A stretch of 62,947 nucleotides of DNA, filler included, from Squatina squatina (Eukaryota): NCBI GenBank assembly GCA_031763465.1. It is 4 parts of 4 records of this genome, joined end to end, with 100 filler letters (N's around TTAATTAATTAA, not from the genome) between each part and the next. Parts side by side here need not be neighbours in the genome. Positions count along the whole stretch, not along the records: positions 29,078 to 44,601 come from JARFOE010000051.1; 3 more parts are not named here. One strand, written 5' to 3'. Below the pieces are notes generated by a model that had not been told where the DNA came from, ran no database searches, and saw nothing but the letters and a program-made list of their open reading frames with translations. The position numbers were made by a program, and so were the translations under genes. Shown here piece after piece: positions 1 to 50,842 of this stretch (the stretch's first letter is position 1; each line of letters opens with the position of its first letter).

Positions 1-1130
1 GTTCTCCTATAGTTTGATTGCCTTCACTCTGGTGCCAACTCCTTCAGTCTGGCATGATTTCCTCAAATCTGCATTCATCTCCTTGAGTCTGAAGTCATTT
101 GCTGCACTGTCAAGTCAGGGGCTGGAGTACTTTGTGTGCGTCTCGCCTCTGCACATTGCACCTTAAGTGCCGATTTAGCTCCAAAAGATCAAGTGCCGAT
201 TTAGCGCCTCCAGAATGTGCCTCTCCTAAAAAAAATTTTTTTACTGAGTTTCGTAACATTATAGCACCTCTGCGGCCAGGCGCGATTAAGGTGCCAAATA
301 TTTTTGCAACACCTTCACAGAGACGCTATCGAATTCACCCCCCCTAGTTCCCAAAGCTCTCCACCACTGAGGGTTTTCCTCACCTCATGTCTGGGTCTGT
401 TGTGGACATATCGATAGAGATTGATCACTGTGATTGGTCAACAACTGCATTGTACCATGGGACTACAAGGATGGTAGAAGGTGAACTGGAAGGACTTGGG
501 TCTTTTTTCATCTAGCAATTCCTATGTTCCTATGATGATGGACAAACAGAAATCTGATCACCTTACAGACCCCCTGGGTCAGCGGACTCCAGATTCGAAA
601 CCTAAGCTCCAGCTACAGTTGATTGGCTGATAATTCAGGGTGAAGATCGCCAATAAGCAAAGTTTCACCAGTTTCACCCTGGCCCACTCCACATCCTCCC
701 CAAGACTTCAGCTGACCTTATCTTCTTGGATTTTAGGCTTTACGGAGCTGCCTGGCGCAGGGAAATTAAAGCTGAGGTGAGATTCTCTTTACTCAGATCC
801 GACTTTTGACATAATGGCCCTGAAATTGCGATTTCCCCGGGTGAGAATGATATCCCATGCACCCAGGGAGACATCGCAAAAGCTGGTTATGGGCTGTANN
901 NNNNNNNNNNNNNNNNNNNNNNNNNNNNNNNNNNNNNNNNNNNNNNNNNNNNNNNNNNNNNNNNNNNNNNNNNNNNNNNNNNNNNNNNNNNNNNNNNNNN
1001 NNNNNNNNNNNNNNNNNNNNNNNNNNNNNNNNNNNNNNNNNNNNNNNNNNNNNNNNNNNNNNNNNNNNNNNNNNNNNNNNNNNNNNNNNNNNNNNNNNNN
1101 NNNNNNNNNNNNNNTCTGGTGTGATCTTAC

Positions 1131-1370
1131 CTGGTCGTACATGATGATTTTGTCGGCCATGGTGTAGAGCAGGGTGGCCTGCGTGATGAGCTCTTTCTTC
1201 GCATCTTTGTTCTTTTCTTTCCGAGCCTGCTGTACATAGTAAGCGGCGAGTGTGTCCAGACAGGTCATCTGGTCCTTCTCATGATCTCGGTAATCCAGGT
1301 TTCCATCGATACGAGCGGCTTCCAGCAGCTTCACGAAATCTTCTGTCTTTCCTTGCTTGAAGTACTCGAG
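1131..1370 (-). CDS. CTR9: CTR9 (PAF1 complex TPR subunit) internal coding exon, 240 nt
   Basis: Translates [80 protein letters not shown], near-identical to the vertebrate CTR9 N-terminus. Acceptor ttaaag| and donor |GTAAG, phase 0-0. Confidence 0.97.
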
Positions 1371-2584
1371 CTTTAAGATAGAAATGTTTTTAATTTGCGT
1401 GTGACAGTAAAAAAAAATACTCCCGTAGCCTTGCGATTTGCGTGTCCTGGAATCACGCTGTGAGCAGCACATTCGAAACATAGGATCAGAAGCAGGCCAT
1501 TCAGCCTCTGCTTTGTCTCCTATCTCTCAACCAATTAGCAACCCACGTCACAAGGTTCTGTGCACTTTTATTTTTACCGATAATCTCCTGTCGAATGCCT
1601 TTCGGGAGTCCATGTAGATGACCTCCACAGACTCTCCCCCACCTACAATAGGAACAGGAGGAGGCCATTCAGCCTCTCGAGTCTGTTCTGCCATTCAAAG
1701 AGACCATGGCTAATCTGTATCCTCACTCCATGCACCCATCTTGGCTCCATGTCCCTTTCTTTATACCCTTGCCAGCAAAAATCTATCGATCTTGGATTTA
1801 AAATTATTAATTGAGCTACTAACTACTGCTTTTTGTGGGGGAAGAGTTCCAAACTTCNNNNNNNNNNNNNNNNNNNNNNNNNNNNNNNNNNNNNNNNNNN
1901 NNNNNNNNNNNNNNNNNNNNNNNNNNNNNNNNNNNNNNNNNNNNNNNNNNNNNNNNNNNNNNNNNNNNNNNNNNNNNNNNNNNNNNNNNNNNNNNNNNNN
2001 NNNNNNNNNNNNNNNNNNNNNNNNNNNNNNNNNNNNNNNNNNNNNNNNNNNNNNNNNNNNNNNNNNNNNNNNNNNNNNNNNNNNNNNNNNNNNNNNNNNN
2101 NNNNNNNNNNNNNNNNNNNNNNNNNNNNNNNNNNNNNNNNNNNNNNNNNNNNNNNNNNNNNNNNNNNNNNNNNNNNNNNNNNNNNNNNNNNNNNNNNNNN
2201 NNNNNNNNNNNNNNNNNNNNNNNNNNNNNNNNNNNNNNNNNNNNNNNNNNNNNNNNNNNNNNNNNNNNNNNNNNNNNNNNNNNNNNNNNNNNNNNNNNNN
2301 NNNNNNNNNNNNNNNNNNNNNNNNNNNNNNNNNNNNNNNNNNNNNNNNNNNNNNNNNNNNNNNNNNNNNNNNNNNNNNNNNNNNNNNNNNNNNNNNNNNN
2401 NNNNNNNNNNNNNNNNNNNNNNNNNNNNNNNNNNNNNNNNNNNNNNNNNNNNNNNNNNNNNNNNNNNNNNNNNNNNNNNNNNNNNNNNNNNNNNNNNNNN
2501 NNNNNNNNNNNNNNNNNNNNNNNNNNNNNNNNNNNNNNNNNNNNNNNNNNNNNNNNNNNNNNNNNNNNNNNNNNNNNNNNNNNN

Positions 2585-2938
<354 letters not shown>

Positions 2939-12029: not shown

Positions 12030-12524
<495 letters not shown>

Positions 12525-15319: not shown

Positions 15320-15419
15320 NNNNNNNNNNNNNNNNNNNNNNNNNNNNNNNNNNNNNNNNNNNNTTAATTAATTAANNNNNNNNNNNNNNNNNNNNNNNNN
15401 NNNNNNNNNNNNNNNNNNN
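15320..15419. other. Artificial scaffold linker (N44-TTAATTAATTAA-N44)
   Basis: Six-frame stop spacer centred in 100 nt. Identical at 28978-29077 and 44602-44701. Confidence 0.98.
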
Positions 15420-28977: not shown

Positions 28978-29077
28978 NNNNNNNNNNNNNNNNNNNNNNN
29001 NNNNNNNNNNNNNNNNNNNNNTTAATTAATTAANNNNNNNNNNNNNNNNNNNNNNNNNNNNNNNNNNNNNNNNNNNN
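28978..29077. other. Artificial scaffold linker
   Basis: N44-TTAATTAATTAA-N44. Confidence 0.98.
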
Positions 29078-29193: not shown

Positions 29194-29642
29194 GTGTCAG
29201 CTGTGGCTCAGTGAGGCAGAAGGTTGTGGGTTCAAGTCACACTCCAGAGACTTGCACACATAAATCTAGGCTGACACTCCCAGTGCCGTACTGAGGGAAT
29301 ACCGCACTGTTGGAGGTGCCGTCTGTTGGATGAGACGTTAAACCGAGGCCCTGTCTGCTCTCTCAGGTGGACATAAAAAATCACAGGGCACTATTTTGAA
29401 GAGAAGGGGAATTATCCTGAGTGACCTGGCCAATGTTTATCCCCCAATCAACATCACTGAAACAGATTATCTAGTCATTATCACATTGCTGTTTGTGGGA
29501 GCTTGCTGTGCGCAAATTGGCTGCCGTGTTTTCTACATTACAACAGTGACTACATTTGAAAAGTGCGTCATTGGCTGTAAAGTGCTTTGGGACGTCCAGA
29601 GGTTGTGTAAGGCGCTATATAAATCCAAGTCTTTCTTTCTTT
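29194..29642 (+). mobile_element. Near full-length Deu-domain SINE (SacSINE1-like)
   Basis: tRNA-like head (tggctcagtg A-box; gggttcaagtc B-box), Deu core (gtgccgtc..ggatgagacgttaaaccgaggccc), L2-like tail ending gcgctatataaatccaagtctttctttcttt. Partial copies at about 3600-3900, 5350-5780(-), 26770-26880(-) and 60938-61118. Confidence 0.85.
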
Positions 29643-29760
29643 ACATATGGTTTAATGTGTNNNNNNNNNNNNNNNNNNNNNNNNNNNNNNNNNNNNNNNN
29701 NNNNNNNNNNNNNNNNNNNNNNNNNNNNNNNNNNNNNNNNNNNNNNNNNNNNNNNNNNNN

Positions 29761-30546
29761 AACCGGATCAAGGGCCTTGATTTAAGTGGTTGTAAACAGG
29801 GAGGAGACCACTGGGCATGCCCAAATGAGCTAGTCGACCAGGGAGAAGAGGTATGCGGGTTAGACACATAGTCTAACTGTTCTTTAATCCTCAGGCCGGT
29901 GACAGCCAATTTCACTCGTGTGACACTGGTGGGCCAAACCTATTATGTGATCACTGGACAATCAAACTACGCTAAGGCAGGCTTGACCTCTGAACTGATC
30001 GATCACAATGTAGCAATGACAAAGGTAACGCGGGCCTTAAAAATTGGAGATCAGTTCCTTCCCCCTTTACGAAGGAATGGGTGGATTAAAGAGATATTAT
30101 CACTTGAGAACGCCGATACCGACGATTTATTGCATCAATTCGTACCCACTTTACTCCCAGATTTACCCCCGCGAACCGCCGATTGGCAAATGCTGGAGGA
30201 ACAAGCAAGGGAGATAGTACACAAGTGGCATGAGCTTAAAAAGGACGTGCAGCGACACAAGGAACAAGCAGAGGAAGACCTCAGAGCCCGATCCTTCTGG
30301 GAAACGTTGTGGGACTGGGGACTTCATGTAAATATACATCCTTGGATCCGTATTATATCACACGTAGTAGTAGCAGTGCAATTTATAGTACTCTTTATTG
30401 TCGTAATACTATTCTGTTGCCTCTGTAGAGAATATAAACGGAAAACCCGAAGATGTAGCATCACCAAGACTATCAGAGAAATAAGTGAAAAGGGCTTTGC
30501 CCAGACTAGACTTAAGCCACGAATAGATTACGACTTTATTCTGTAG
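29761..30546 (+). pseudogene. 3' part of a retroviral-type envelope (fusion glycoprotein) gene with one in-frame stop
   Basis: The frame is open from the gap at 29761 except TAG at 29869-29871. It encodes a Cys cluster GLDLSGC..HWACP..VCGL..NCS, sequons NCS and NFT, a heptad-like helix (WQMLEEQAREIVHKWHELKKDVQRHKEQ), a Trp-rich membrane-proximal region (FWETLWDWGL), a TM (VVVAVQFIVLFIVVILFCCLC) and a basic tail. A PPT and LTR follow directly. Confidence 0.85.
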
Positions 30547-30584
30547 GTATGACTCGTTCTGGGTCATTATGGACCAGAAGGGTC

Positions 30585-30596
30585 AACAGGAGGGAT
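30585..30596 (+). other. Polypurine tract of the LTR element
   Basis: AACAGGAGGGAT lies immediately before TG at 30597. Confidence 0.7.
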
Positions 30597-31315
30597 TGAT
30601 CGGGTGAGAATAGAGTGAGTTGCATAGACTAGTAAGAGGTACATCTATATTTAGCACACCTCAAAATTAGGTACCTAGCCACTGGCTGAAGGGATACCAG
30701 CAAGTGAACAAGGCATTCTGGGAAGCTCCTTCTCAGCTTGACCAAATACCACAAGATTAATTAAAACAGGGATAACCTGTCTCTTGTGATCTCTAAATAA
30801 TGAGGAGTTCTCCAAGCATAACCGGATACCACAAGACAAGATTGAAACAAGAAATCACAGCTTGCCTTTTGTTCTACTTGGTGATAAGAAGTTCTGCAGC
30901 TCATAATGCATTAAATCACCCTGCAGCTATGGGGGGTGTGTGGATTGAGGCTACGTTATAGAAACCAGATGTTTCACAGCGCTAGATAGGTCAGCCGGGG
31001 TCATAGCAGTTAGTGATAAGATACATTCCCTTTCACACCGGTAAGGATGTAGCAATTATATGTTGTTTTCAGTGACTTTTATTGATAAATTAATCACTGT
31101 ACAACATTGTGATTGGACGGGAAAAGATTAAGTAAGACACAGCAGTATTGTAATTAACCACTTTTTTGTGTATAATTGTACAACTATCGAAGAATCCTCT
31201 AAGACATGCCTGAACGGAGGAGTTTACGCATGGCTTCCCTGATCTCAGGAAATAAAGCTTACCTTTACTTTCAAGTGACCTGTCTGGAGTCTGTTATTTT
31301 TAAAGACCCCGAACA
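30597..31315 (+). mobile_element. 3' LTR (719 bp) of an endogenous retrovirus-like element
   Basis: TGATCGGG...CCCGAACA termini (TG..CA, 7/8 inverted repeat). Imperfect U3 repeats (ataccacaaga at about 30747 and 30826), inverted CCAAT at 31112-31116, TATAAT at 31171-31176, AATAAA at 31251-31256. Confidence 0.82.
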
Positions 31316-31894
31316 CATTAGATACACTCCAATCCACAGGAACTGATCCAGAACCGAGAGAATTTTGGAAAATGATCATCCTGATGGGCCAAATGGCCTC
31401 CTTCTGTGCTGTACATTTCTCTGATTCTATGTTTCAATAATTCAATGCTTTTCATTGAAGCCTTCCGGCCGTTGGAATTTTGCCTTCCATTTAATATAAG
31501 GAAACATATACTCGGACAAGCAAACATGGAACTACAGGAGTTATTTTCGGATCTCAGAAAAACATTAAACCTAAGAATTGACCCACAGATTCTGAAGGTG
31601 TGGTTCGATTATTTTCCCGGTCCGCTGGAAGCGGATACCCAGTCCACATTCACAGTCCTTCCATCGGCTCAATTCCAGTTGATTCAATTTCTCTGAGGAT
31701 GGGTTTGAAAAGTGATCTGTATAAATGTATAGGTTTTGACAATAGTGCTGTCTGTTGCATTAGTTCATTTTTTGGTCCGTGCTGTTCAATTTGATTCTGA
31801 TCTCAATTTTGACAATAAATCAGTTGAAGGGAAACGCTGTTCGCCCCATTGCTGAGAGCCTTTATTACATTTGGGTGATAATTATGCTGTGGTA

Positions 31895-32826
31895 TCAGGG
31901 AGGCACTTCCGGCTTCCCTTCACAATTTCTCCTTATTTTACTAACGAGAATAAATGGATATTTCAGAGCATTGAACATCTCCTCTCTGAACTGTCTCTGG
32001 GTTACTGTGTAAATGGCTGTGTTCATGCAGGAACTCAGGAGCAGAAGCATAGTCCCAGCTTCATTGAAACTTCCAAAATAGTTAAAGGTGGATCTGCGGT
32101 TATAGCGCCCTACAATTCGATAATATATGAAATACACGACCGCTGTCATCCACAGCAGGATAAAACTGCTGGATATTGCAAACAGTAAAATGATGGACCG
32201 TCTGCGGTTCTGTATCTCCGGATCCTTCTCTTTCTCACCATTGCAGCAGTCTCGGAGGCTCCTTCTGGCCCGACTGGCAACCAAAATGCGTCTGGCGGTG
32301 AGAGCATTAAAGAACAAAACTGAAAAGAATGGAAGCAACGGGGTTAACAGCTGATCGAACCAGGAAAATGCTATCCATGGGGTAAAAATAAAAAAATGCG
32401 CCGATACAAGGCAGCCACTTGGTATATTGTTAACTCTCGTCATAGGTACATAAATGAAGGCCCAGGGAATGTTCTTTAAACAGAACAGCAGGCTCACGGT
32501 GATGATAATTGCAGCTGCAGTTTGTTCGGTGCAATATTTTGTTTTCAGCTTCTGACAGCAAATAGCAACAAACCGATCAAAGGTAAAAGCGACGGTGAAC
32601 CAGACAGAACAGTCTATGGCAGTTGGAGACAGGAAGAGAATGAATCTGCAAACGGAGGTGTAAAGCAGGAAAGAATCCCACCAATAAATGTCTGCAATCC
32701 GATATAATATCACATTACAGACAATCACCAGGAGATCTGCCGTCGCCATGGCCACCAGGTAGCGAGTGATGCACTTGGACAGTCCGCACTTTCCCCGGGA
32801 CAGGATGACGATCGCCAACAAGTTGA
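31895..32826 (-). CDS. GPR139/GPR142-like class A orphan GPCR, main coding exon
   Basis: Intact 7TM frame with NLLAIVILSRGKCGLS, YLVAMATADLL, FTFDRFVAICC and SSCMNTAIY. Acceptor tatttctcacag| in phase 1. With the 35010-35079 exon it gives 333 aa. Confidence 0.92.
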
Positions 32827-33504
32827 CTGTGAGAAATAGAAAAGAAAACAGAAAAATACCCAGCCAGACTCAAATGTAAAGAAGCAGCTTATTTCATGGC
32901 CATTCTTTGTTGAACATCGACGCTTGTGTTCTGCTCTCCTCTCCTGAAGGTGCAGGACATGCTGATGGAGGAAATTGTGATGCCTCATCTCACAGTTCAA
33001 TCTTTATCCATTCTATGAGGATCCATAAAGCAGGAAATAGTGAGTATAAAGCAATATTAGAGATACTGATTCTAACATCCCGATTCAACTTGAACAGAAG
33101 AGAAAGCGACAGAATAAAAAAAAGCGAGAGAATCAACATAAGTTTGAAAGGCTGTGCGAGAAGAGAACACACCAAGAATAAGATGGGTTATGAGAGAGGA
33201 AAACAAGAATTGAGAGGGTCAGAGGAGGAGACATCACCAAGAATAGTAGTCAGAGTGACTGGTAATTAAACGGCACCGAGATTCCAGTGAAAGAAGTCAA
33301 AGCCAAGAACAAAGGCGAGCTCAAGAGTGAACAATAAACAATGCAAGAATTTGGCAGGTGAGAAGACAACACAGATGTTCAAAGGGAGAGCAGCAGAAGT
33401 AAATTCGAATTATAAATTGGTCGTGAAGATATGGAAACACAAGGCTATGAGGAAACAGAGAGAAGAATATACAAAGCGCCAATTGGATTGGGAGAGATGA
33501 AACA

Positions 33505-34610
33505 ATCCAAAGATAAAAAGTGACTGGAGAGACGACAACATGGAGGATAAAAGGGACCGGAGAGAAGTCAACACTGATGATAAAAGGAAAGGGAGTGAAG
33601 ACAACACTGAGGATAAAATGGACTGGAGTGAAGACAACGCTGAAGATAAAAGGGACTGGCGTGAAGACAACACTGAGGATAAAAGGGACTGTAGTGAAGA
33701 CAACACTGAGGATATAATGGACTGGAGAGAAGTCAACACCAAGGATAAAAAGGACTGGAGAATAGACAAGACACCACGGAGGATAAAATAGAGTGGAGAG
33801 AAGACAAAACTGAGAATAAATTGGACTGGTGAGAAAACAACACTGAGGATAATTTGGACTGGAGAGAAGACAACACTGACGATAGAAGGGACTGGAGAGA
33901 TGACAACACTGATGCTAAATAAGACTGGAGGGAAGAAAACACTGAGGATGTTTTGGACTGGAGAGGAAACAACAGTGAGGACAATTTAGACTGGAGTGAA
34001 GGCAATATTGGGGATAAAAGGGACTCGAGAGAAGATGACACAGAGGATAAAAGAGACTGGAAAGAAGACAAAACCGAGGATTTAAGGGACTGCAGTGAAG
34101 ACAAACTGAGAATAAAACTGACTGGAGTGAAGACAACAGAGTGGATAATAGGGACTGGAGGGAAAACAATATTGAGAATAACTTGGACTGGAGAGAAGAC
34201 AACACTGAGGATAAAATGGACTGGAGAGAATACAACAACGATGATTAAAGGGACTGGATGGAAGACAACACTGATGGGAAAAAGCGACTGTAGAGAAGAC
34301 AACACCAGGACTAAAAGGGACTGGTGAGATGACAACTCTGAGGATAAAATGGACTGGAGAGAACCCAACACTGAGGATAAAAGGGACTGGAGAGAAGACA
34401 ACACTGAGGATAACAGGGACTGGAGAGAACACAACACTGAGGATGAAAGGGCCTGGAGAGACAAAAACACTGAGGATGAAATCTACGGGAGAGTAGACAA
34501 CACTGAGGTTAAAATGGACTGGAGAGAAGACAACACTGAGGATAAAAGGGACTGACATGAAGGCAACACTAAGGATAAAAGGGACTGGCGTGAAGACAAC
34601 ACTGATGATG
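33505..34610. repeat. 33-bp minisatellite (about 33 copies) in the GPCR intron
   Basis: Consensus GGACTGGAGAGAAGACAACACTGAGGATAAAAG is directly visible. Confidence 0.95.
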
Positions 34611-35009
34611 AATGGCAGAAGCACAGCTATAAATACTAAAGATTAAATTCAATCGGATACGAAAAATAACTTTGATATACGGAAAGGAATGGAGAAGAAA
34701 TCCTCACGGGCAAAAGTGAGTGAGATAGTTGACAGGAAGAAGAAAACATGGAGTGTGAGAGAAGACCACAGCAGTGAAGAAATAGCTCATTGCAGGAAAT
34801 AACAGCCAGGATGAATGGGAATGGAGAGACGGCAGAGCAAAGATTGAAAGGGATTGGAAGGGTGGACAATATCACAGATAAAAGGTGTTTGCTAAATGTC
34901 AATATGAAGGATGAAATGTAGCAAGAGAGAAGACAGCACCTCGGATGAAAAGTTATCGGACTGAAGACAGCATCAATGATGGCCACAAGAAGTCCTGAAA
35001 CTAACTTAC

Positions 35010-35079
35010 CAGGGACTCCTACTGTTGCGAGAACAGGGAAGTATACAGCCTGTATCTGAGAAATTGATGTCCCATGCAT
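35010..35079 (-). CDS. GPR139/142-like GPCR first coding exon
   Basis: MHGTSISQIQAVYFPVLATVGVP then G|GTAAG. The phase-1 join restores TM1 (GVP-V-NLLAIVIL). An upstream acceptor (attcctttcag| at 35124) implies a further 5' UTR exon. Confidence 0.9.
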
Positions 35080-36265
35080 TCTTCGTGTGTTGAGGATTCC
35101 TGTGGATATTGGAGCCGAGCGATCTGAAAGGAATAATGAGACAATGGAGAGAAATGAGAGTTTTATTTATAGTGCAGTGAATCCCCAATCATGCTGTTAG
35201 ATTGCGTCCCGAAGGTTATTTGTTCCAGGTTGTGGAACAACCAATGTACTGAAAACATCTGGACCTTCACTGCGAAACTCATCAGACAAGAAGTCAATTA
35301 ACATATACCAGATGTGTCACCTTTGGGAACAAGAGCTGCAAGTTCAAAGAATAACACAATATATTCAGGCTCAAAGCGAGCTAAACAACGTAGGCCATTT
35401 TGAAACCTTTCCTATCAATGAGATATTATTACTTGAAGTTTGGACACAATTCTTCGATTATCTCTCTTCTTCTCATATCTCCTCTCTCACAATTCCTCTT
35501 CCAAAGACCAAGTTATTATTGTGAGTTCCTCGCCCCTTTCTCCTTCATTGAGTCAAATTTTATCTCTTGGTATCTCTCCATCCTTGTTTCTCACATTAAC
35601 TCTTCTCTCATTTTATCTTTATATTTTATTCCAGTCTTCTCTCCAACTCCATCTCTCCCGTGTATAATATAAATAGAGACAAGGCTGGACATCCTCCACT
35701 GGTCGGGCAGCACCTCAGGGAAGGCCATCGACCTGAAAGTTTAAATCTCTTTCTCCCTCCATAGATACTCCCTGGCCTGCTGCGTATTCCCAGCGTTTAC
35801 ATTTATATTTTAGATTTCCAGCATCAGCACTATTTTGCTTTAATCTTTCCCTTTCTTTCTTTCCCTTTTACTCTTTCTCGCAGCTTCTCTTCGTTTCTGG
35901 CTTTGATTCCCCACCTCTCTGATTTGCTCTGCCCTCTTTTCCAAGACATTCCCTCTGTCCTTCTCTCTCCATTCTCCAATTGTTCTCACTCACATGCTTT
36001 CTTTCATTCCCTTTTTTTCCCCAATGTCTCTATATTTACTTCTGCTTGTCGGAGTAAGTGGTTCGGAACATGTGATGAAGGAGTCGGAATGGGCTGCTCG
36101 TGCAGCCGAGCCTGCTCCCCCATTCAATAAGATCATGGGTGATCTTCTAACTCAACCCCATTTTCCTGCAGTATCCACACATCCCTTGATGACATTAATA
36201 TCTCGAAATCTCTCGATCTCTGTCTTGAATATATTCAATGAATTGAAGCCTCCTCAGCACTCTAT

Positions 36266-36975
36266 GGTACAGAGGTGTCTGGGTGATCTCGTACATGAAA
36301 CACAAAAAGTTAGCACGCAGGTATTGCAATATTTATGAAGGCAAATGTCATGTTAACCTTTATTGCAAGATGATTTCAGTGTAAAAGTCGGGAAGTCTTG
36401 CTGCAACTGTTCAGGGCGGGGTTAAAAGCTGGCCTACATACTGCACACAGTTTTCCTCTCCATATGGAAGCATGGACGTACTTGCATTGAAGGCAATTTA
36501 GAGAAAGTTAACTCGATTGATTCTTGGATGAAGGGGTTGTATTGTGAGGAGAGGTTGAGCAATTCTGGTCTGTACTCATTCGAGTTCAGAAGAATGAGAA
36601 GTGGTCTTATTGATGTTTCTGAATTATGGATGATTCTGAGGTGGCTTGACAGTGTCGATGTTGAGAGGATGTTTAACCTTGGTGGCGAATAAAGAACCAA
36701 GTGACAGATTTTAGGTCGGAGGCGTCACACTTTTAGACCGAGATGAGGAGAAATTTCTTCTTTCAGTGGGACGTGAAAACTTGCAATTCTTTAGCCCAGG
36801 GATCTGAGTATCAGCATCGTGGAATATAATCAACGTTGAGAAAAACACATTTTTGATCCACAGGGGAGTCAAGAATTCTGGGGAACAGGAGGACTGTGGA
36901 CTGAGGCCAAGGTGAGATCAGCCATGATGGTATTGAATGACGGAGCAGGCTCGAGGGGTCGAATTGCCTCCTTCT
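36266..36975 (+). mobile_element. Degraded CR1 LINE 3' portion
   Basis: Contains gtctgtactcattcgagttcagaagaatgagaagtggtcttattga and the tail agatcagccatgat..gaatgacggagcaggctcgaggggtcgaattgcc. A reverse CR1 tail precedes it at about 36055-36265. Confidence 0.8.
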
Positions 36976-39485
36976 TGCTTTCTTTCTATCTTACTTTCTA
37001 TCTTTCTTTCTATCTTTCTTGCTTTTATCTTTTCCTCTTTTATTTTTTCTTTCTTTCACCCATCATTTTTCTCTTTCTCTCCTTACTTTGCTCTCTCTTG
37101 CTTTTTTGCTTTTCTTTCTTTCCTTCTCTCCTTCTTTCTTTCTAATTATTGTTTATTCTATCTTTTCGCCTCCGTTTTTCTTTTTTCCCTTCTTCCATTC
37201 TTGCTTTGTTCTTATTAGTTTGTTCTTTCTTTCTATCTTTCTTGATTTTTTCTCAGTTTCCTTCCTGAATTCTTTATTGCGCTTATTCTTTCTTTCCAGC
37301 ATTTTTCAGTTCTTTCTTTTTTAAATTTTTTTCATGTTGCATTTTATTCTATTTTTCATCTCATCTTTGTTTCTTTCTTTTCTTCTTTTTCGCTTTCTTT
37401 ATTTTATGTATTTTCTCTTTAGTTATTTCCTTCTTTCTTTCTTCCTTTCATCTTTTCTTTCTTTCCTTATTCTTGGTCTCTTTCAATCTTGACTTTTTCC
37501 TCCCTCTCTTTTTTTCCTTCCTTTTTTCAGAATTTGCTGGTTTATTTCCTTTTTTCTTTCTTGCTTTACTTCTTCCATCGGTTTCTTTCTTGCAATTTTT
37601 TTTCCCTTCCTTCTAATATTTTTTCTCCATTTTCTTCATTTTTCTTTAGTTCTTTCTTTCCATATATCTATATTTCTTCTTACCTCCTCATTTCATTCTT
37701 TCTTTCAGTTTTTCTTGCTTTCACTATTATTTTCTCTTTTTCATTCCTGTACTTTTTCGTCCCTTCTTTCTTTCCTTCATTTTTTTTCTTTATTCACTTT
37801 CATTCCTTCCTTAGTTTATTGTTTCCTGCTTTTACTTTATTCTTTCTTTCCATCGAACGTTCTTCCCTTCTTGCTTGCTCTTTCCTTTCCTTCTGAGTTT
37901 CATGTCTTTTTCTTTCTTTCTTTGTATTTTCTTCCTTTGTTCCTCCTTTTCTGCTATTTTCTTTCTTTCTTATTTACATTCCTTCTTGCGTTTTTCCTTT
38001 TTCATTGTTTCCTTTTGTCCGTGTTTTCATTCCTTCCATCTTTCTCTCTTGTTTTCTCTCTTTCTTACTTTCCTTCTTTCTGCATTTCCCGGTTCCTTGA
38101 TTTTTTTTTACTTCATTTTTTCTTTCTTGCTCACTTGTTCTGCTTCCTTTCGTTCTTTCTGTCCCTCTTTCTTTATTCTCTTCTTTTTCTGTTCTTTGTT
38201 TCCTGTTTTCCTTATTTCATTTTTATGTTCTTTCTTAATTATATGTTCATTTTTATTTCTTCTCTCTTTCCTTTTATCTTTTATCCTTTACTTTTTTCTG
38301 TCTTATATTTCTGTCTTTCTTGATATCTTTCTTTCTTTGTTTCTTATTTCTCCCTTTCATTCTTTCTTTCAAACCTTTTTCTGTGTTTCTTTCTTTGTTG
38401 ATTATTTTCATTCTTTCCTTATTATTGTCTCTTGTTCCTTCATTTTTACTTGTATTCTTCATTTGATGTTTCTTTCACTCTTTCTTTCTTGCTTGCTTTT
38501 TTAATTATTTCTTTCTTTCATTCCTTCCTTCTTCCCTTCGAGCTTTTTATTCTTTCTCTCTCTGTTTCTTTTTTTTAATTTCTTTGATTCGTTTTTTTTG
38601 TTCTTATTTTTTTTTCATGTTTTTCTATTTTTCTCCTTTTGGGACATTTATTCCTGTGTTCCTACTTTACTTCTTACCGTTTTCCATCTTTCTTGCATTT
38701 GTACTGCCCTTCATTCCTTCCTTCTCTCAGTGTTTCTTTCTGTCCTTGTATTCAATCCCTTCATCTTTGTTTCTTGTTTTCTCTCTTCACAACTTTCCTT
38801 CCCTATTTCATTCATTCTTCATTTCCTTCTTTCATTCTTTCTTCCTTCCTTATTTTTTACGTGTTTTCTTTTTTTTCTTGCGGATTTGCTCTTTGTTCAT
38901 TCATTCTCACTATCCCTCTTTTGTATTTCTCTCCTTCTTTCTCTGTTTCTTTCTTTCTTGTTTCTTCCTTATTTCTTTTTACATCTTTTCTTTGTTACTC
39001 ACTTTCTTCCTTTTATTCTTTCATCACTTTTTTGTTTTCTAATGTTTATTTTATGTCTTCATTTTCTCTCATTCTTGATTTTTTTCTTTCAGTCTGATTT
39101 GCTTTTTTATTTGTTCCTGTTTTCTGTCGATCGTTCTTACTTTCAGCTGGTTTTTTTGAACTTCATTCTCTCTTTCCTTTTTGATGGTCACTCTTTCTCT
39201 CATGTCTCATTTTTCATCTTTCTTTCTTTCATCCCTGCGATTTTGTTCATTCTTTCTCTCCTTTTTTCATTCTTCTTTGCTATTTTCCTTCTTTTAGTCT
39301 TGCTTTCAATTTTCGTTTCTTGCTGTTTTCTCTCCTTCTATCGTTCTTCCATTTTATTCTGCTATTCTTTCTTTCATACATTTATTCTTTCTTTCATTCA
39401 TTCTTGCTGTTTTTCCTTCCGTCTTTCTTTCATGTAGCTTTTTCTTTTCTTTCTTTCATTCTTTGTTTCTTCCTTTTTGTTTATT
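36976..39485. repeat. About 2.5-kb T/C-rich low-complexity tract (degenerate TTTC)
   Basis: Almost purely pyrimidine on the + strand. It produces the spurious F/L/S-rich ORFs. Confidence 0.95.
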
Positions 39486-39489
39486 CAGA

Positions 39490-42400
39490 ACGTAAGAACA
39501 AAGTAACTTAAGCAACATGTGCAGGAATATTCTATATGTCCTCTCGGCCTACTCCATCATTCAACAAGATCATGCCTGATCTTCCAGCACAACTCCTTTT
39601 TGATGCACTACCCCCATATCCCTTGATGCATTTAATATCTAGAAATCTACCAATCTCTGCCTTGAATATACTCAATGACTGATACTACACATTCCTCTGA
39701 GTTACAGAATTACAAAGATGCACCACAGTCTGAGTGAAGAGATTTCTCCTCATCTTAGTCCTAAATGGACTACACCTTATTTTGAGAAAGCTCGAGATCA
39801 AGCAGCCAGGGGAAACATCCTCGCTGAATCTCCCTGTCGATTTGTGTAAAAATGTTGTATGTTTCTATGAGATCAACTGACATTATTCTAAATTCTAGAA
39901 AATGCATGTCTAGTCTCCTCAACAGCTCCTCATAGAACAATCCCCCCATCTCAGCAATCAGACTTGTGAGCCTTCGTTACACTCCCACTATGACAAGTAC
40001 ATCGTTCCTTCGGTCAGTAGACCAAAACTGCACACAATACTCCAGTTGCTGTCTCATCAACGTCCTATAAAATTGCAGTTTTATTGCCCATCTTCAGAAA
40101 CCATGCAGAGATGCAGATACAGGCAACAATCATTATATTGAAATGAGTCGCAGGGAGAGGTGCTCTTGAAAATCTGCAACAACCACACTCTGCAAAACTA
40201 CAACAATTCATATCTTTTATCCACCTTTGGTCATTTGCACACATTCCAATCCTGTCACTTTGCAATCTGAATGTAAGCAGACTCACACTTCGCCCTGATT
40301 TCATCTCACGACTTTTCCCTTTAGTTCTCGTTATCTTTACTAGTAGAATGTGACTTCTTACCACCACCGAGTCTAGGCTGACCTGGCTACCTTATTGATG
40401 TCTTGTGCCTGTTTGTTATTCTGACTGATGAGTTGTACACCATGGTACCAAGCTGCAAATACCTGGCTTCTCACCACGTGTCACATTTATCAAGATGGTG
40501 TTTGGGCTTAATGGTACTCAAGATATAACATCTCTCTCCCTGTCTCCGTCATGGAACACTTCTTTGCTATTCGAAACTTAGCTATGTTATGCCAACATTC
40601 GGTCAACATAAGACATATGCTGTCTTTTGCACTAATACAAAGAGGGCTGTCAGCTGTGTGTTTTCTGTCCTGACAGCATTAACCGTGTTGTCCTTTTAAC
40701 CCTACTTGACTTGTTGCTTTTCCAGAGCAATGCTTGATATGAAACTCACTAAGTTAATATAAAACGCACTAAAACCAATTTCTACCCCAACAGCAGTAAT
40801 ATTTCTGCACTCAAATCCCCTTGTAATATAGCCCCAGCTAACATTCGGTTTCCTAACTGCTTGCTGCACCTGCATGTTAGCTTTCAATGACTCCTGTAGA
40901 AGGTTACCCAGGTCCCTTTGAACATCAACATTTCCCAATCTCTCACCAGTTAAACAATACTCTACATTTCTCTTTTCCAACCAAAGTGAATAACTTCATA
41001 TTTCGAGTTTACATTCCATCTGCCACGTTCTTGCCAACTCACTTCGCCTATCTATTTCCTCTTGAAGCATGGTTGTATACTCCTCACAATTCACAATCTC
41101 ATCATCATCTTCAAACTTGGAAATAAAACACTTGGCACCTCATTCAAATCATTGATATCAACTGTGACTAACTGAGGCCCATGAACTAGCCCTTGAGATA
41201 GCCCACTCTTCCCAGCCTGCCAAACAGAAAATGACCCGTTTATTCCTACTCCCTGTCATCTGTCTGTTAACCAATTCTCAATCCATGCCAATATGTTACC
41301 TGCAAGCCTGTGATCTCTAATTGTGTTCACTAACCTCTCGAGTGAAACCTTATCGATCGCATTCTGAAAATCCAATCACACCATATTTCTTTTCTATTCT
41401 TCGAGTTACAACCAAAACAAATCCAACAACCATGTAAAATATGATTTCCCTGCCATAAATTCATGTTGAATCTGTCCAATGCAAACATTATTTTCGAAAT
41501 GTCCTGTTATCACATACTTTTCCATAGATTCTGTCCTGCACCCCACGACTGATATATGTAGTTCCCTATTTTCTCTCTCGCTCCTTTCTTAAATATTGGG
41601 ACTACAGTCGCTACATTCTTATCTGCAGGAACCGTTCTAAAATCTATGGAATTTTTGAAGACTGCAGCCAATGCATCCACTATCTCTATAGTCATCTCTT
41701 ACAAAACGCTCAGATGTAGATCTTCACGTTCTGGAGATTTATCAATGCACAGTCTCATTAATTGCTCCAGTACTTTTTTTTTACTGATACTAATTTCTTT
41801 CAGTTCCTCCTTGTCACTCGTCACCAGTTTGTCCTTTATTTCTGGCGGATTTTTGTTTCTTCCTCCGTGAAACCAGGTAAAACGAATTTGTTAAATTTCT
41901 CTGCCACTATCTTCTTCCACATTATAAATTCAAATGTTTCTGCCTGGAAGAAACGCACGTTTGCTTTCACCAACCTATTCCTTTTTACACACCAATAGAA
42001 GATTTTACAGTCTGTTTCAATGTTGCTCGCGAGTTTACTCTCTTATTCTCTTTTCCCTTCCTTGATCAATTTCTCGGTCCTCTTTTGCTGATTTTTAAAA
42101 TATTTCCATTCCTCAGGCTTAAAGCATTTTTTTTATCGAAAACTATGTTAAACTTCTCGTTTTAACTACGGGTGACCAATTTTCCTGTTGTTTTTTTTTG
42201 CCTTAAAGGATTTATGTTTATTGAAAGTTATGGATCCAGTCTTTAAATGATCGCTGTTACATGTCTACTGTCATAACTTTTAATTTAGTTTCACAATCTA
42301 CCAAAGTTAACTCGCCCCCCAAACCCTCTTATCTCCCTCTGTTTATATTTCAGACCCTAGTTTAGGATTCAACAACATCACTTTCAAAACTAATATAAAT

Positions 42401-42890
42401 TCTGTGATTATAGTGTCACTCTTCCCTAAAGGCCCTTTTGCAGCAATATTATTAATTAGTACTTTCTCATTGCACAATCCAAGATCAAAATAGACTTTGG
42501 GTTTGTTCCTCAACGTACTGCTCCAGAATACCTTCTAGTCGACAATCCAGGAATTCTTCCTCCACATTATTAGTGCTAATTTCGTTTGTCTAGTCTATAT
42601 GTAGATTATAGTATCCCGTGACTTCTGTATGATGCTTGATATATGCATCTCCAATCTCCTGATTTATACCGTGCCCTGCATTACCACCACGACTGAGTGT
42701 CCTGTAAACAAGACTGCACAATGTTTTCTGCCACTTGTTGTTTCTTATCTCCACCCAAGGAGATTCTACATCACGATCTTCCCATCCAAGTCCCTTCCTC
42801 ACCATTGAACTGACCTCCTGCTTCCCCAATAGTGCTACCCCAGCTCCATATCCATTTGGCCTTTCAATCCTAAATGTCGAATCGCCTTGA
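39490..42890 (-). mobile_element. Long degraded CR1 LINE (endonuclease to 3' tail), interrupted at about 40075-40790
   Basis: EN remnant VESPWVEIRNNK..LVYR (about 42700), RT remnant IVDALAAVFKNSIDFRTVPAD..ATVVPIFKKGAREKIGNY, VQRDLG..QVQQAVRK (about 40900), reverse tail at 39490. Confidence 0.87.
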
Positions 42891-42914
42891 ATATTCAGCT
42901 CCCAGACTATCTTT

Positions 42915-43650
42915 TCAGATTTGCTTTCATCTTGCTTCCTTTCTATCTTGGTTTCTTTCTTTACTTTATTCTTTCTGTCTATTCATTCTTTCTTGGTTTT
43001 TCACTTTCTTTCTTTCCTTCCTTCCTCCTTGCTTTATTTCCAGCATTCTTCTGCTTTCTAACTTTCCATCTTTGTTTTATTTCTGTATTTCCTTCTTACT
43101 TTCTTTCTGTTCTGTCTTCCTTTCCTTCTGTCTATTTCTATCTGTCCTGCTTTCTTTCTTTCCATCTTTTTCATTCTTTCATTCTTTCTCTTTCCTTCCT
43201 TCTTTCTTTTTTTCTGTCTTATTTTTTTCTTTCTTGTTTCCCATCTTGTTTTTTTCGGTCCTTATTTATTTGGTTCTTGCTTTTTGCTGTTTTGCTTGAT
43301 TTTCCTTTCTTTCTTTGCTTTCTTCTTCCTTTCATTTTCTTTGGTTCCAGATATGTTAATTTTCTTTTTAATTTATTTCCTTCCTTCCATCTTAATTTTT
43401 GTTTTTCCTATCATTTTATTCTTTCTTGATTTTCTCTTCCTTTCTTTCTTTCCTTCCTTCTTTCTTTCTTCACTTCTTTCATTTTCTCTTTCTTCCCATC
43501 GTTTCTGTTTTTTTCTTTATTTCCATTTTCATTTCTCCATTTCTTGCTTTTTTCATTTGCTTCTCTCTTTCTTACTTTCTTTTTTTCTTGAATTTTTACT
43601 TTCTTCTCTGCTTTTTCCATTTCTTTCTTCCCCCCTTCTTTATGTGTTCC
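42915..43650. repeat. Second T/C-rich low-complexity tract (runs into gap)
   Basis: Same composition as 36976-39485. Confidence 0.93.
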
Positions 43651-44601: not shown

Positions 44602-44701
44602 NNNNNNNNNNNNNNNNNNNNNNNNNNNNNNNNNNNNNNNNNNNNTTAATTAATTAANNNNNNNNNNNNNNNNNNNNNNNNNNNNNNNNNNNNNNNNNNN
44701 N
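44602..44701. other. Artificial scaffold linker
   Basis: N44-TTAATTAATTAA-N44. Confidence 0.98.
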
Positions 44702-50248: not shown

Positions 50249-50842
50249 TCAGTTCTCATCACCGCTTAGGATGTTGTACCCTTCTGTGTTATTAGAAAAT
50301 AGGACCTGTCTCGGGTCCTTGAATATCAAAACATCTTTAATTTGACCCACCAGCCCCTGAGTAAAAAGTCCAGCCGTGACGCTCTTCACTTTCCTGGAGA
50401 GCTCAAAACCGCCAATGTAGCAAATCCCCCCATAATTCAAGGCACCGTATCTTCTCTGTAGGTCCAGATCTTCAAAGAGTATCCTCACGCCGTTGTGCTT
50501 GACGGTGATGATGGTCTGGTTTTGGTGAATGGAGACAAAGTGCCATCTATCGCAACACAGTGAGGAGTTTCTAAAGATGAAAGGCTGAGCGATTCTTTCC
50601 CCAAGGTTAACTGCGATCTTAAGGTGCCCGTTGGAGATGCCAACAGCAAGATAATCGTTGTCTTCATCTTCAGCTCTTCCCATCCACAAAACCAGACCAT
50701 CTCTCTCGCTGGTGGTGAAGTTGAAAGAGATGGAGGTAAAGCGAAGATCTCTCTTCAGGTATAGCGGGTCGCTGTGCTTGGCATAAGAGCTGCCAGAAAA
50801 CCTTGCAATGAAAAGAGTGATTCGGTTCTCGCAGTGGACCCC
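50249..50842 (-). CDS. EYS: Eyes shut homolog, last exon (final laminin G domain; 5' part in gap)
   Basis: GLVLWMG..DNDYLAVG..LKIAVNLGERI..CCDRWH..ALNYGGICYIGGFE..EGYNILSGDEN* matches the EYS C-terminus. Confidence 0.95.
   Translation of the reverse strand, partial: GVHCENRITLFIARFSGSSYAKHSDPLYLKRDLRFTSISFNFTTSERDGLVLWMGRAEDEDNDYLAVGISNGHLKIAVNLGERIAQPFIFRNSSLCCDRWHFVSIHQNQTIITVKHNGVRILFEDLDLQRRYGALNYGGICYIGGFELSRKVKSVTAGLFTQGLVGQIKDVLIFKDPRQVLFSNNTEGYNILSGDEN

What the first reader, a model, noticed from the sequence alone, without database searches (positions are those of the whole stretch)
29761..31315. Endogenous retrovirus-like element with an atypical, non-gamma-type envelope in a cartilaginous fish
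Seen: a 261-codon env-like frame with one stop, then a PPT and a complete LTR. The visible region before the TM is long (over 200 aa), has a four-Cys cluster (DLSGC-x8-CP-x10-CGL-x5-C), a C-terminal heptad and a Trp-rich membrane-proximal region. It has no immunosuppressive domain or CX6CC motif. Known: gamma/epsilon-type TM subunits are short and carry ISD plus CX6CC. Long Cys-rich fusion subunits occur in foamy, snakehead-retrovirus-like and lokiretrovirus Envs, the last reported (as I recall) to resemble paramyxovirus-type F proteins. Inference: a fairly young member of a deep-branching, possibly undescribed retroviral lineage. gag and pol are lost in the gap, so the class cannot be fixed here.
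Basis: partly seen in the sequence, partly recalled or inferred. Interest (0 to 1): 0.75.

Follow-up and report, generated by a model that had tools for sequence, protein, structure and literature searches.

The report
Shark provirus tail with F-like envelope
This is the broken tail end (part of the envelope gene plus one terminal repeat) of an endogenous retrovirus whose named relatives all come from sharks, and its envelope is predicted to be built like the fusion (F) protein of measles- and RSV-type viruses, likely on an ordinary fish-retrovirus backbone, a pairing my literature searches did not find described.

Summary
Observation confirmed. 29761-30546 is the 3' part of a retroviral env (261 codons, one stop), followed by a short purine tract and a 719-bp LTR (30597-31315). 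Contigs from four other organisms place the LTR's right edge exactly and show a primer-site-like sequence behind it. All 12 named homologues are from five shark genera. No ISD or CX6CC.

Fold evidence points to an F-type (class Ib) fusogen but is weak: best E 0.01 for this protein, 4e-4 for a relative, and Ig folds tie in Z.

Lineage is not fixed, because pol lies in the gap. Against lokiretrovirus: 0 of 6 chondrichthyan genomes in the defining paper. Against foamy: no accessory genes. A catshark gene model joins this env to an MLV-like RNase H (a second by recalled motif), suggesting an SnRV-like or epsilon-like backbone.

Two corrections: walleye epsilonretrovirus Envs are themselves non-gamma, and this copy is decaying neutrally, so it is not clearly young. 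The scan noted F-like shark ERV envelopes earlier on other DNA. Verdict: new variant of a known kind.

The parts
29661..29760 (.). 100-N assembly gap; the rest of the provirus (5' LTR, gag, pol, 5' env), if present, lies here
   Evidence: no second LTR, no other env piece and no matching left flank in the window
29761..30546 (+). 3' part of env, 261 codons, broken by one in-frame stop at codon 37 (29869-29871)
   Evidence: 15 homologous proteins, 12 named, all from sharks
29791..29880 (+). four-cysteine cluster C-x8-CP-x10-C-x7-C (likely end of F-type domain I; placement inferred)
   Evidence: sequence; conserved in relatives; poorly modelled, pLDDT under 50
29896..30078 (+). small beta-sandwich (residues about 46-106), predicted equivalent of F-protein domain II
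30178..30288 (+). C-terminal heptad helix (HRB/HR2), residues 140-176
   Evidence: weak Pfam GP41 match over 148-227, E 6e-4, below cut-off
30295..30345 (+). Trp-rich membrane-proximal region with the family signature W-x-W-G-x4-[IV]HPW
   Evidence: strict regex matches 8 of 16 proteins scanned; alignment A1
30355..30426 (+). transmembrane helix ending in a Cys-rich motif
   Evidence: hydropathy up to 2.9
30427..30543 (+). basic cytoplasmic tail, 39 aa, ending in a YxxI-type motif (role recalled, untested)
30577..30595 (+). purine-rich tract (PPT; core 30588-30595), 50 bp between env stop and LTR, no room for accessory genes
30597..31315 (+). 3' LTR, 719 bp, TG...CA with terminal inverted repeat; TATAA 31171, AATAAA 31251
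   Evidence: depth step in bin 30586-30660 (about 4.5- to 5-fold in X1 and X2, slight in X3 and X4) and loose ends at 31315
31316..31380 (-). host flank: fragment of another, high-copy repeat (CR1-type LINE RT by recalled motif) into which the provirus inserted
   Evidence: contigs in all 4 runs carry other letters before 31315 and continue this repeat; translation

Best explanation
The stretch is the dead right-hand end of an endogenous retrovirus of a shark-wide family, whose envelope is predicted to be an F-type (class Ib) membrane-fusion protein and whose missing polymerase was likely of the ordinary non-foamy, non-loki kind (SnRV-like or epsilon-like). Shown: env remnant, PPT, complete LTR, insertion into another repeat, shark-only named relatives, neutral decay. 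Predicted: the order Cys-rich segment, domain II beta-sandwich, linker, HRB, Trp-rich segment, TM, tail matches the C-terminal half of paramyxo/pneumovirus F and foamy Env. Inferred by analogy: the intact ancestral protein would have been a cleaved trimer whose fusion peptide and HRA (in the gap) inserted into the target membrane while HRB zipped back along the HRA coiled coil, pulling the two membranes together. Inferred in two steps: the backbone, from RNase H pieces joined to a 31-32% identical env subfamily in catshark gene models. This copy can no longer make the protein.
Against: No fold match for the window's own protein reaches E 0.001. Ig/FnIII and alphavirus E2 domains score equal Z, and the wide VIA search returned only generic helices. 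Both models are poor overall (pTM 0.30 and 0.27). The top BFVD hits are arthropod-virus glycoproteins whose fusion class I did not verify, and Atlas feature hits were led by class III-type families. Profile searches of PDB found no F protein at E up to 10. The RNase H link rests on ab initio gene models of decayed loci, which may splice together neighbouring elements; P0016's piece had no PDB support and is read by recalled motif. Env genes are swapped between lineages, so the window's pol may differ from the catshark one.
Confidence: 0.55

Rival explanations
1. It is a foamy-like ERV of cartilaginous fish (FLERV/EFV) with the ordinary foamy class Ib Env.
For: Foamy Env is F-like (PMC11468914, section 9) and ranks 2nd and 4th in the BFVD searches. 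Shark foamy-like ERVs are published (PMC5512871, PMC10699275; passages), and fish FLERV Env cannot be aligned to mammalian foamy Env.
Against: Only 50 bp between env and LTR, whereas the full-length FLERVs described carry accessory genes there. No Foamy_virus_ENV match in 10 members at E up to 10. MLV-like RNase H in a relative.
Confidence: 0.14
2. It is the first lokiretrovirus of cartilaginous fish.
For: Loki Env resembles paramyxo/pneumovirus F and the genome is simple gag-pol-env (PMC7947760).
Against: 0 of 6 chondrichthyan genomes screened had loki RT, including S. torazame and C. punctatum, which hold this env family. Loki RNase H groups with foamy, not MLV. No ray-finned fish protein among the 12 named homologues.
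Confidence: 0.09
3. It is an env-carrying Ty3/Gypsy (errantivirus-like) LTR retrotransposon with a baculovirus-F-type env.
For: Weak Baculo_F matches; F-type env occurs widely in metazoan Gypsy elements (bioRxiv 10.1101/2023.10.26.564294, passages).
Against: That preprint found no intact vertebrate elements homologous to the invertebrate ones. The RNase H in a relative is retroviral.
Confidence: 0.07
4. It is an ERV, but the envelope is not homologous to F: an Ig-like domain plus a gp41-like membrane-proximal part of another origin.
For: Ig/FnIII folds tie in Z; the best sequence-level family match is GP41 over HR2-MPER-TM (E 6e-4).
Against: F-type proteins of several virus families cluster near the top of two independent model searches; domain order and the near one-to-one length of the domain II match fit F.
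Confidence: 0.15

Closest known systems
Paramyxo-/pneumovirus F and foamy virus Env (class Ib fusogens; PMC11468914)
   Same: Predicted domain II beta-sandwich followed by HRB, membrane-proximal segment and TM; Cys-rich segment upstream; no ISD/CX6CC.
   Different: Sequence identity 16% or less in fold alignments; no Pfam Fusion_gly or Foamy_virus_ENV match; no accessory genes after env; fusion peptide, HRA and cleavage site not visible.
Lokiretroviruses (PMC7947760)
   Same: Vertebrate ERV with an F-like Env, env directly before the LTR.
   Different: Not found in 6 chondrichthyan genomes; loki RNase H is foamy-group, while relatives of this env carry an MLV-like RNase H piece.
Walleye epsilonretroviruses WDSV/WEHV
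   Same: Env lacking gamma hallmarks (PMC9967133); WEHV-1 Env appears weakly in the fold search (E 0.15); an MLV-like RNase H would fit.
   Different: WEHV-1 Env is 1317 aa; the walleye viruses have accessory genes after env and a very long tail (recalled), this has neither; no sequence-level hit.
SnRV-like ERVs (clade Huo of PMC6001957), including CmiERV lineage I of elephant shark (PMC4422223)
   Same: Shark host; an RNase H type compatible with this clade; long LTR with AT before the primer site in CmiERV scaffold 2.
   Different: CmiERV scaffold 2 and scaffold 324 both have gamma-type env with ISD and CX6CC and different LTR ends (read by eye). SnRV Env itself could not be compared.

Membership tests
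LTR retroelement / ERV | env, PPT, LTR with TG...CA ends, primer site behind the 5' LTR | tested here: met
   loose ends starting AT-TGG behind 31315 in X1, X2, X3
Gamma-type Env | ISD followed by CX6CC in a short TM ectodomain | tested here: not met
   absent over about 198 residues before the TM and in 15 hits
Class Ib (F-type) fusogen | domain II beta-sandwich, then HRB, then TM | tested here: inconclusive
Class Ib (F-type) fusogen | cleavage site, fusion peptide, HRA, domain I/III core | not testable with these tools
   lies in the gap; no full-length homologue found
Lokiretrovirus | RT sister to all other retroviruses | not testable with these tools
   no pol in the window, no genome held
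Lokiretrovirus | foamy-group RNase H | tested here: inconclusive
   relative P0009 is MLV-like, but the link is through a gene model of another subfamily
Lokiretrovirus | published host range | tested here: not met
   0 of 6 chondrichthyan genomes
Foamy viruses / FLERVs | accessory genes between env and 3' LTR | tested here: not met
   50 bp only against acc genes in PMC5512871
Foamy viruses / FLERVs | Env of Pfam PF03408 | tested here: inconclusive
   no match in 10 members, but fish FLERV Env is too divergent to align to mammalian foamy Env
Foamy viruses / FLERVs | RT in the foamy clade | not testable with these tools
   no pol available
SnRV-like clade (Huo) | RT groups with snakehead retrovirus | not testable with these tools
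   no RT retrieved (one search found none)
CmiERV lineages I and II (described shark ERVs) | same env and LTR | tested here: not met
   both have gamma-type env and other LTR ends; lineage III is printed without env
Epsilonretrovirus (WDSV/WEHV type) | Env without gamma hallmarks | tested here: met
   (a shared absence only)
Epsilonretrovirus (WDSV/WEHV type) | Env homologous to WDSV/WEHV Env | tested here: inconclusive
   WEHV-1 Env E 0.15, rank 15; not in the top 50 for P0015
Env-carrying Ty3/Gypsy (errantivirus) | Baculo_F-type env with Gypsy pol | tested here: inconclusive
   Baculo_F below cut-off (E 0.18 here, 0.0011 in P0010); RNase H piece in a relative is retroviral

The most novel reading that the evidence does not exclude
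Sharks harbour an undescribed, multi-lineage family of orthoretrovirus-type ERVs (MLV-like RNase H; SnRV-like or epsilon-like) that enter cells with a paramyxovirus-F-type class Ib envelope. The F-type fusogen is then not confined to foamy viruses and lokiretroviruses: it was either ancestral to all retroviruses and later replaced by the gamma-type Env, or captured again, and the unexplained Env of the walleye epsilonretroviruses may belong to the same class.
Probability: 0.45. Interest if true: 0.7.

Novelty: new variant of a known kind. Interest (0 to 1): 0.5.

Why it matters
The origin of retroviral env is open: PMC7947760 lists four scenarios it cannot separate, and PMC11468914 places orthoretroviral Env (class Ia) and foamy Env / paramyxovirus F (class Ib) in classes of likely different origin. 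A class Ib Env on an orthoretrovirus-type polymerase, in the oldest jawed-vertebrate lineage, would break that split and make the scenarios testable with paired RT and Env trees. The family signature and LTR ends given here are enough to pull full copies from shark assemblies. This locus alone is a dead fragment and settles none of it.

Full report
1. What is there. The window is a gapped scaffold with 44 N-runs; the finding opens a gap-free stretch 29761-43650. Frame 1 from 29761 gives 261 codons with one stop at codon 37, read as X (P0001); such a frame has a chance of about 3e-6 at local composition. Its order is: four Cys (11, 20, 32, 40), a beta-rich block, a helix at 140-176, a Trp-rich segment, a TM at about 199-222 and a 39-aa basic tail. 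No ISD-like or CX6CC motif occurs in about 198 residues before the TM, so the absence is not a gap effect. Fifty bases after the stop, behind a short purine tract, a 719-bp segment runs from TG (30597) to CA (31315) with a 7-of-8 terminal inverted repeat, TATAA at 31171 and AATAAA at 31251.

2. The LTR is real. Fourteen runs were listed, 13 holding part of the stretch; I laid the top 4, from four organism codes. Their contigs cover env and LTR. Summed depth steps up in the bin 30586-30660 (X1 38 to 171, X2 8 to 39; slight in X3 and X4); depth is not a copy number. At 31315, contigs of X1, X2 and X3 run on with AT-TGG..., as a primer-binding site would behind a 5' LTR, and contigs of all four runs arrive at 31315 from other letters and continue through 31316-31378, a separate high-copy repeat. 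Its minus-strand translation resembles CR1-type LINE RT by a recalled motif. So this is a 3' LTR inserted into an older repeat. The left flank and a second LTR are not in the window.

3. The family. phmmer over 1.84 billion representatives gave 16 hits. One is a bacterial adhesin (dropped). Of the other 15, 12 carry names and all 12 are sharks: Scyliorhinus torazame 6, Heterodontus francisci 3, Heptranchias perlo, Pristiophorus japonicus and Chiloscyllium punctatum 1 each. Identities to P0001 are 23-44%, so several subfamilies exist. They share the Cys cluster and a W-x-W-G-x4-[IV]HPW signature before the TM (strict pattern in 8 of 16 scanned). No full-length Env was found. The host is taken to be a cartilaginous fish from these names; it was not identified further.

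4. Age. The longest env pieces from the four runs differ from the window by 2.0-4.6%. Of the 40 difference rows shown (123 not shown), 16 lie in env. I kept the 13 where every covering run differs from the window and dropped 3. The 13 fall 4/5/4 on codon positions 1/2/3, the stop codon among them, which is what neutral decay after insertion gives. That is at least 1.7% of env sites. With the two rates used in PMC4422223 (2.2e-9 and 2.2e-10 per site per year) this spans roughly 8 to 75 million years, so 'fairly young' is not established.

6. How it would have worked (inferred). In class Ib fusogens, domain II is followed by HRB and the TM, and HRB zips back along the HRA coiled coil after the fusion peptide inserts (PMC11468914, section 9 and passages). 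The visible part maps to that C-terminal half. Cleavage site, fusion peptide, HRA and receptor-binding part are in the gap and untested. This copy is broken upstream of all its confident domains.

7. Lineage. pol is missing. Two S. torazame gene models on different contigs join an N-terminal piece to this env family. P0009's piece is RNase H (Pfam E 4e-5) and aligns without gaps to MLV/XMRV RNase H (E 2e-5), with no foamy or HIV RNase H among 17 matches. P0016's piece looks like the start of an RNase H by recalled motif only (one search gave no support). PMC7947760 (parts 1-3 of 4 read) groups loki with foamy RNase H and the other retroviruses apart; its supplement (searched, cut when stored) lists 0 lokiretroviruses in 6 chondrichthyan genomes, including S. 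torazame and C. punctatum. Full-length foamy-like ERVs in PMC5512871 carry accessory genes after env (passages); here there are 50 bp. The elephant-shark ERVs of PMC4422223 (part 1 of 2 of the text and all of supplement 1 read) are not this family: scaffolds 2 (SnRV-like) and 324 (epsilon-like) have gamma-type env, and 2324 is printed without env. PMC9967133 says WDSV/WEHV encode a distinct, non-gamma Env (passage). An orthoretrovirus-type backbone, SnRV-like or epsilon-like, is therefore favoured but reached in two inferential steps.

8. Known and new. F-type Env is published for foamy viruses, lokiretroviruses and invertebrate Gypsy elements. Searches found no paper describing one on an orthoretroviral backbone. 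Passages of PMC6001957, PMC10699275, PMC8227577, PMC10435555, PMC8672886, PMC13709493, PMC4977317 and bioRxiv 10.1101/2021.11.05.467493 showed none either. PMC9972966 could not be read. Unchecked notes of this scan report F-like envelopes in shark-type ERVs of other genomes (e1-7806516, e1-8036072), one with relatives nearest the SnRV clade (e1-7806250; also e1-7789907). Sequence look-ups did not link them to this family. The SnRV note moved me from epsilon-first to SnRV-like being at least as likely; it is not counted as evidence.

9. Verdict. Real feature, ordinary as a locus (dead, partial), interesting as a family. New variant of a known kind; interest 0.5; most novel reading probability 0.45, interest 0.7 if true.

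Noticed in passing
window 31895-32869 (-): Open 324-aa rhodopsin-family GPCR frame (7tm_1 E 1.2e-16), about 580 bp from the LTR; GPR139-like by recall. A second GPCR-like N-terminal piece is at 34636-35166 (-).
   Followed up: partly
window 29022-29033 (also 15364-15375 and 44646-44657 by spacing): A 12-nt TTAA repeat between two 44-N runs, a linker with stops in all frames as used by some scaffolders; with the many 100-N gaps it suggests an ordered pseudo-scaffold, so adjacency across gaps is unreliable.
   Followed up: no
window 33516-34609: 33-bp tandem array, 33 copies, 77% matches, strongly purine-skewed; gives long low-complexity open frames.
   Followed up: no
window 36972-39476 and 42930-43616: Long degenerate TTCT-type pyrimidine tracts.
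   Followed up: no
window about 29196-29640: SINE-like repeat of the kind common in sharks (recalled) just left of the gap.
   Followed up: no
window 1116-2938 (-), 12165-12524 (-), 50252-50842 (-): Exon-like pieces resembling CTR9, a RAS GTPase and a laminin-G domain protein (names recalled from the translations).
   Followed up: no
proteins P0010 and P0015 (Heterodontus francisci): RefSeq models carry this env family; one fbxo15 isoform has the env C-terminal part spliced onto an F-box protein. It may be an annotation artefact or an exonised ERV piece.
   Followed up: partly
ESM Atlas rows 1-2: Two unnamed 874-aa chordate clusters (60 and 57 members) are the best structural matches of P0015 (TM 0.50, 0.47); they could be full-length related Envs, but could not be fetched.
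   Followed up: no
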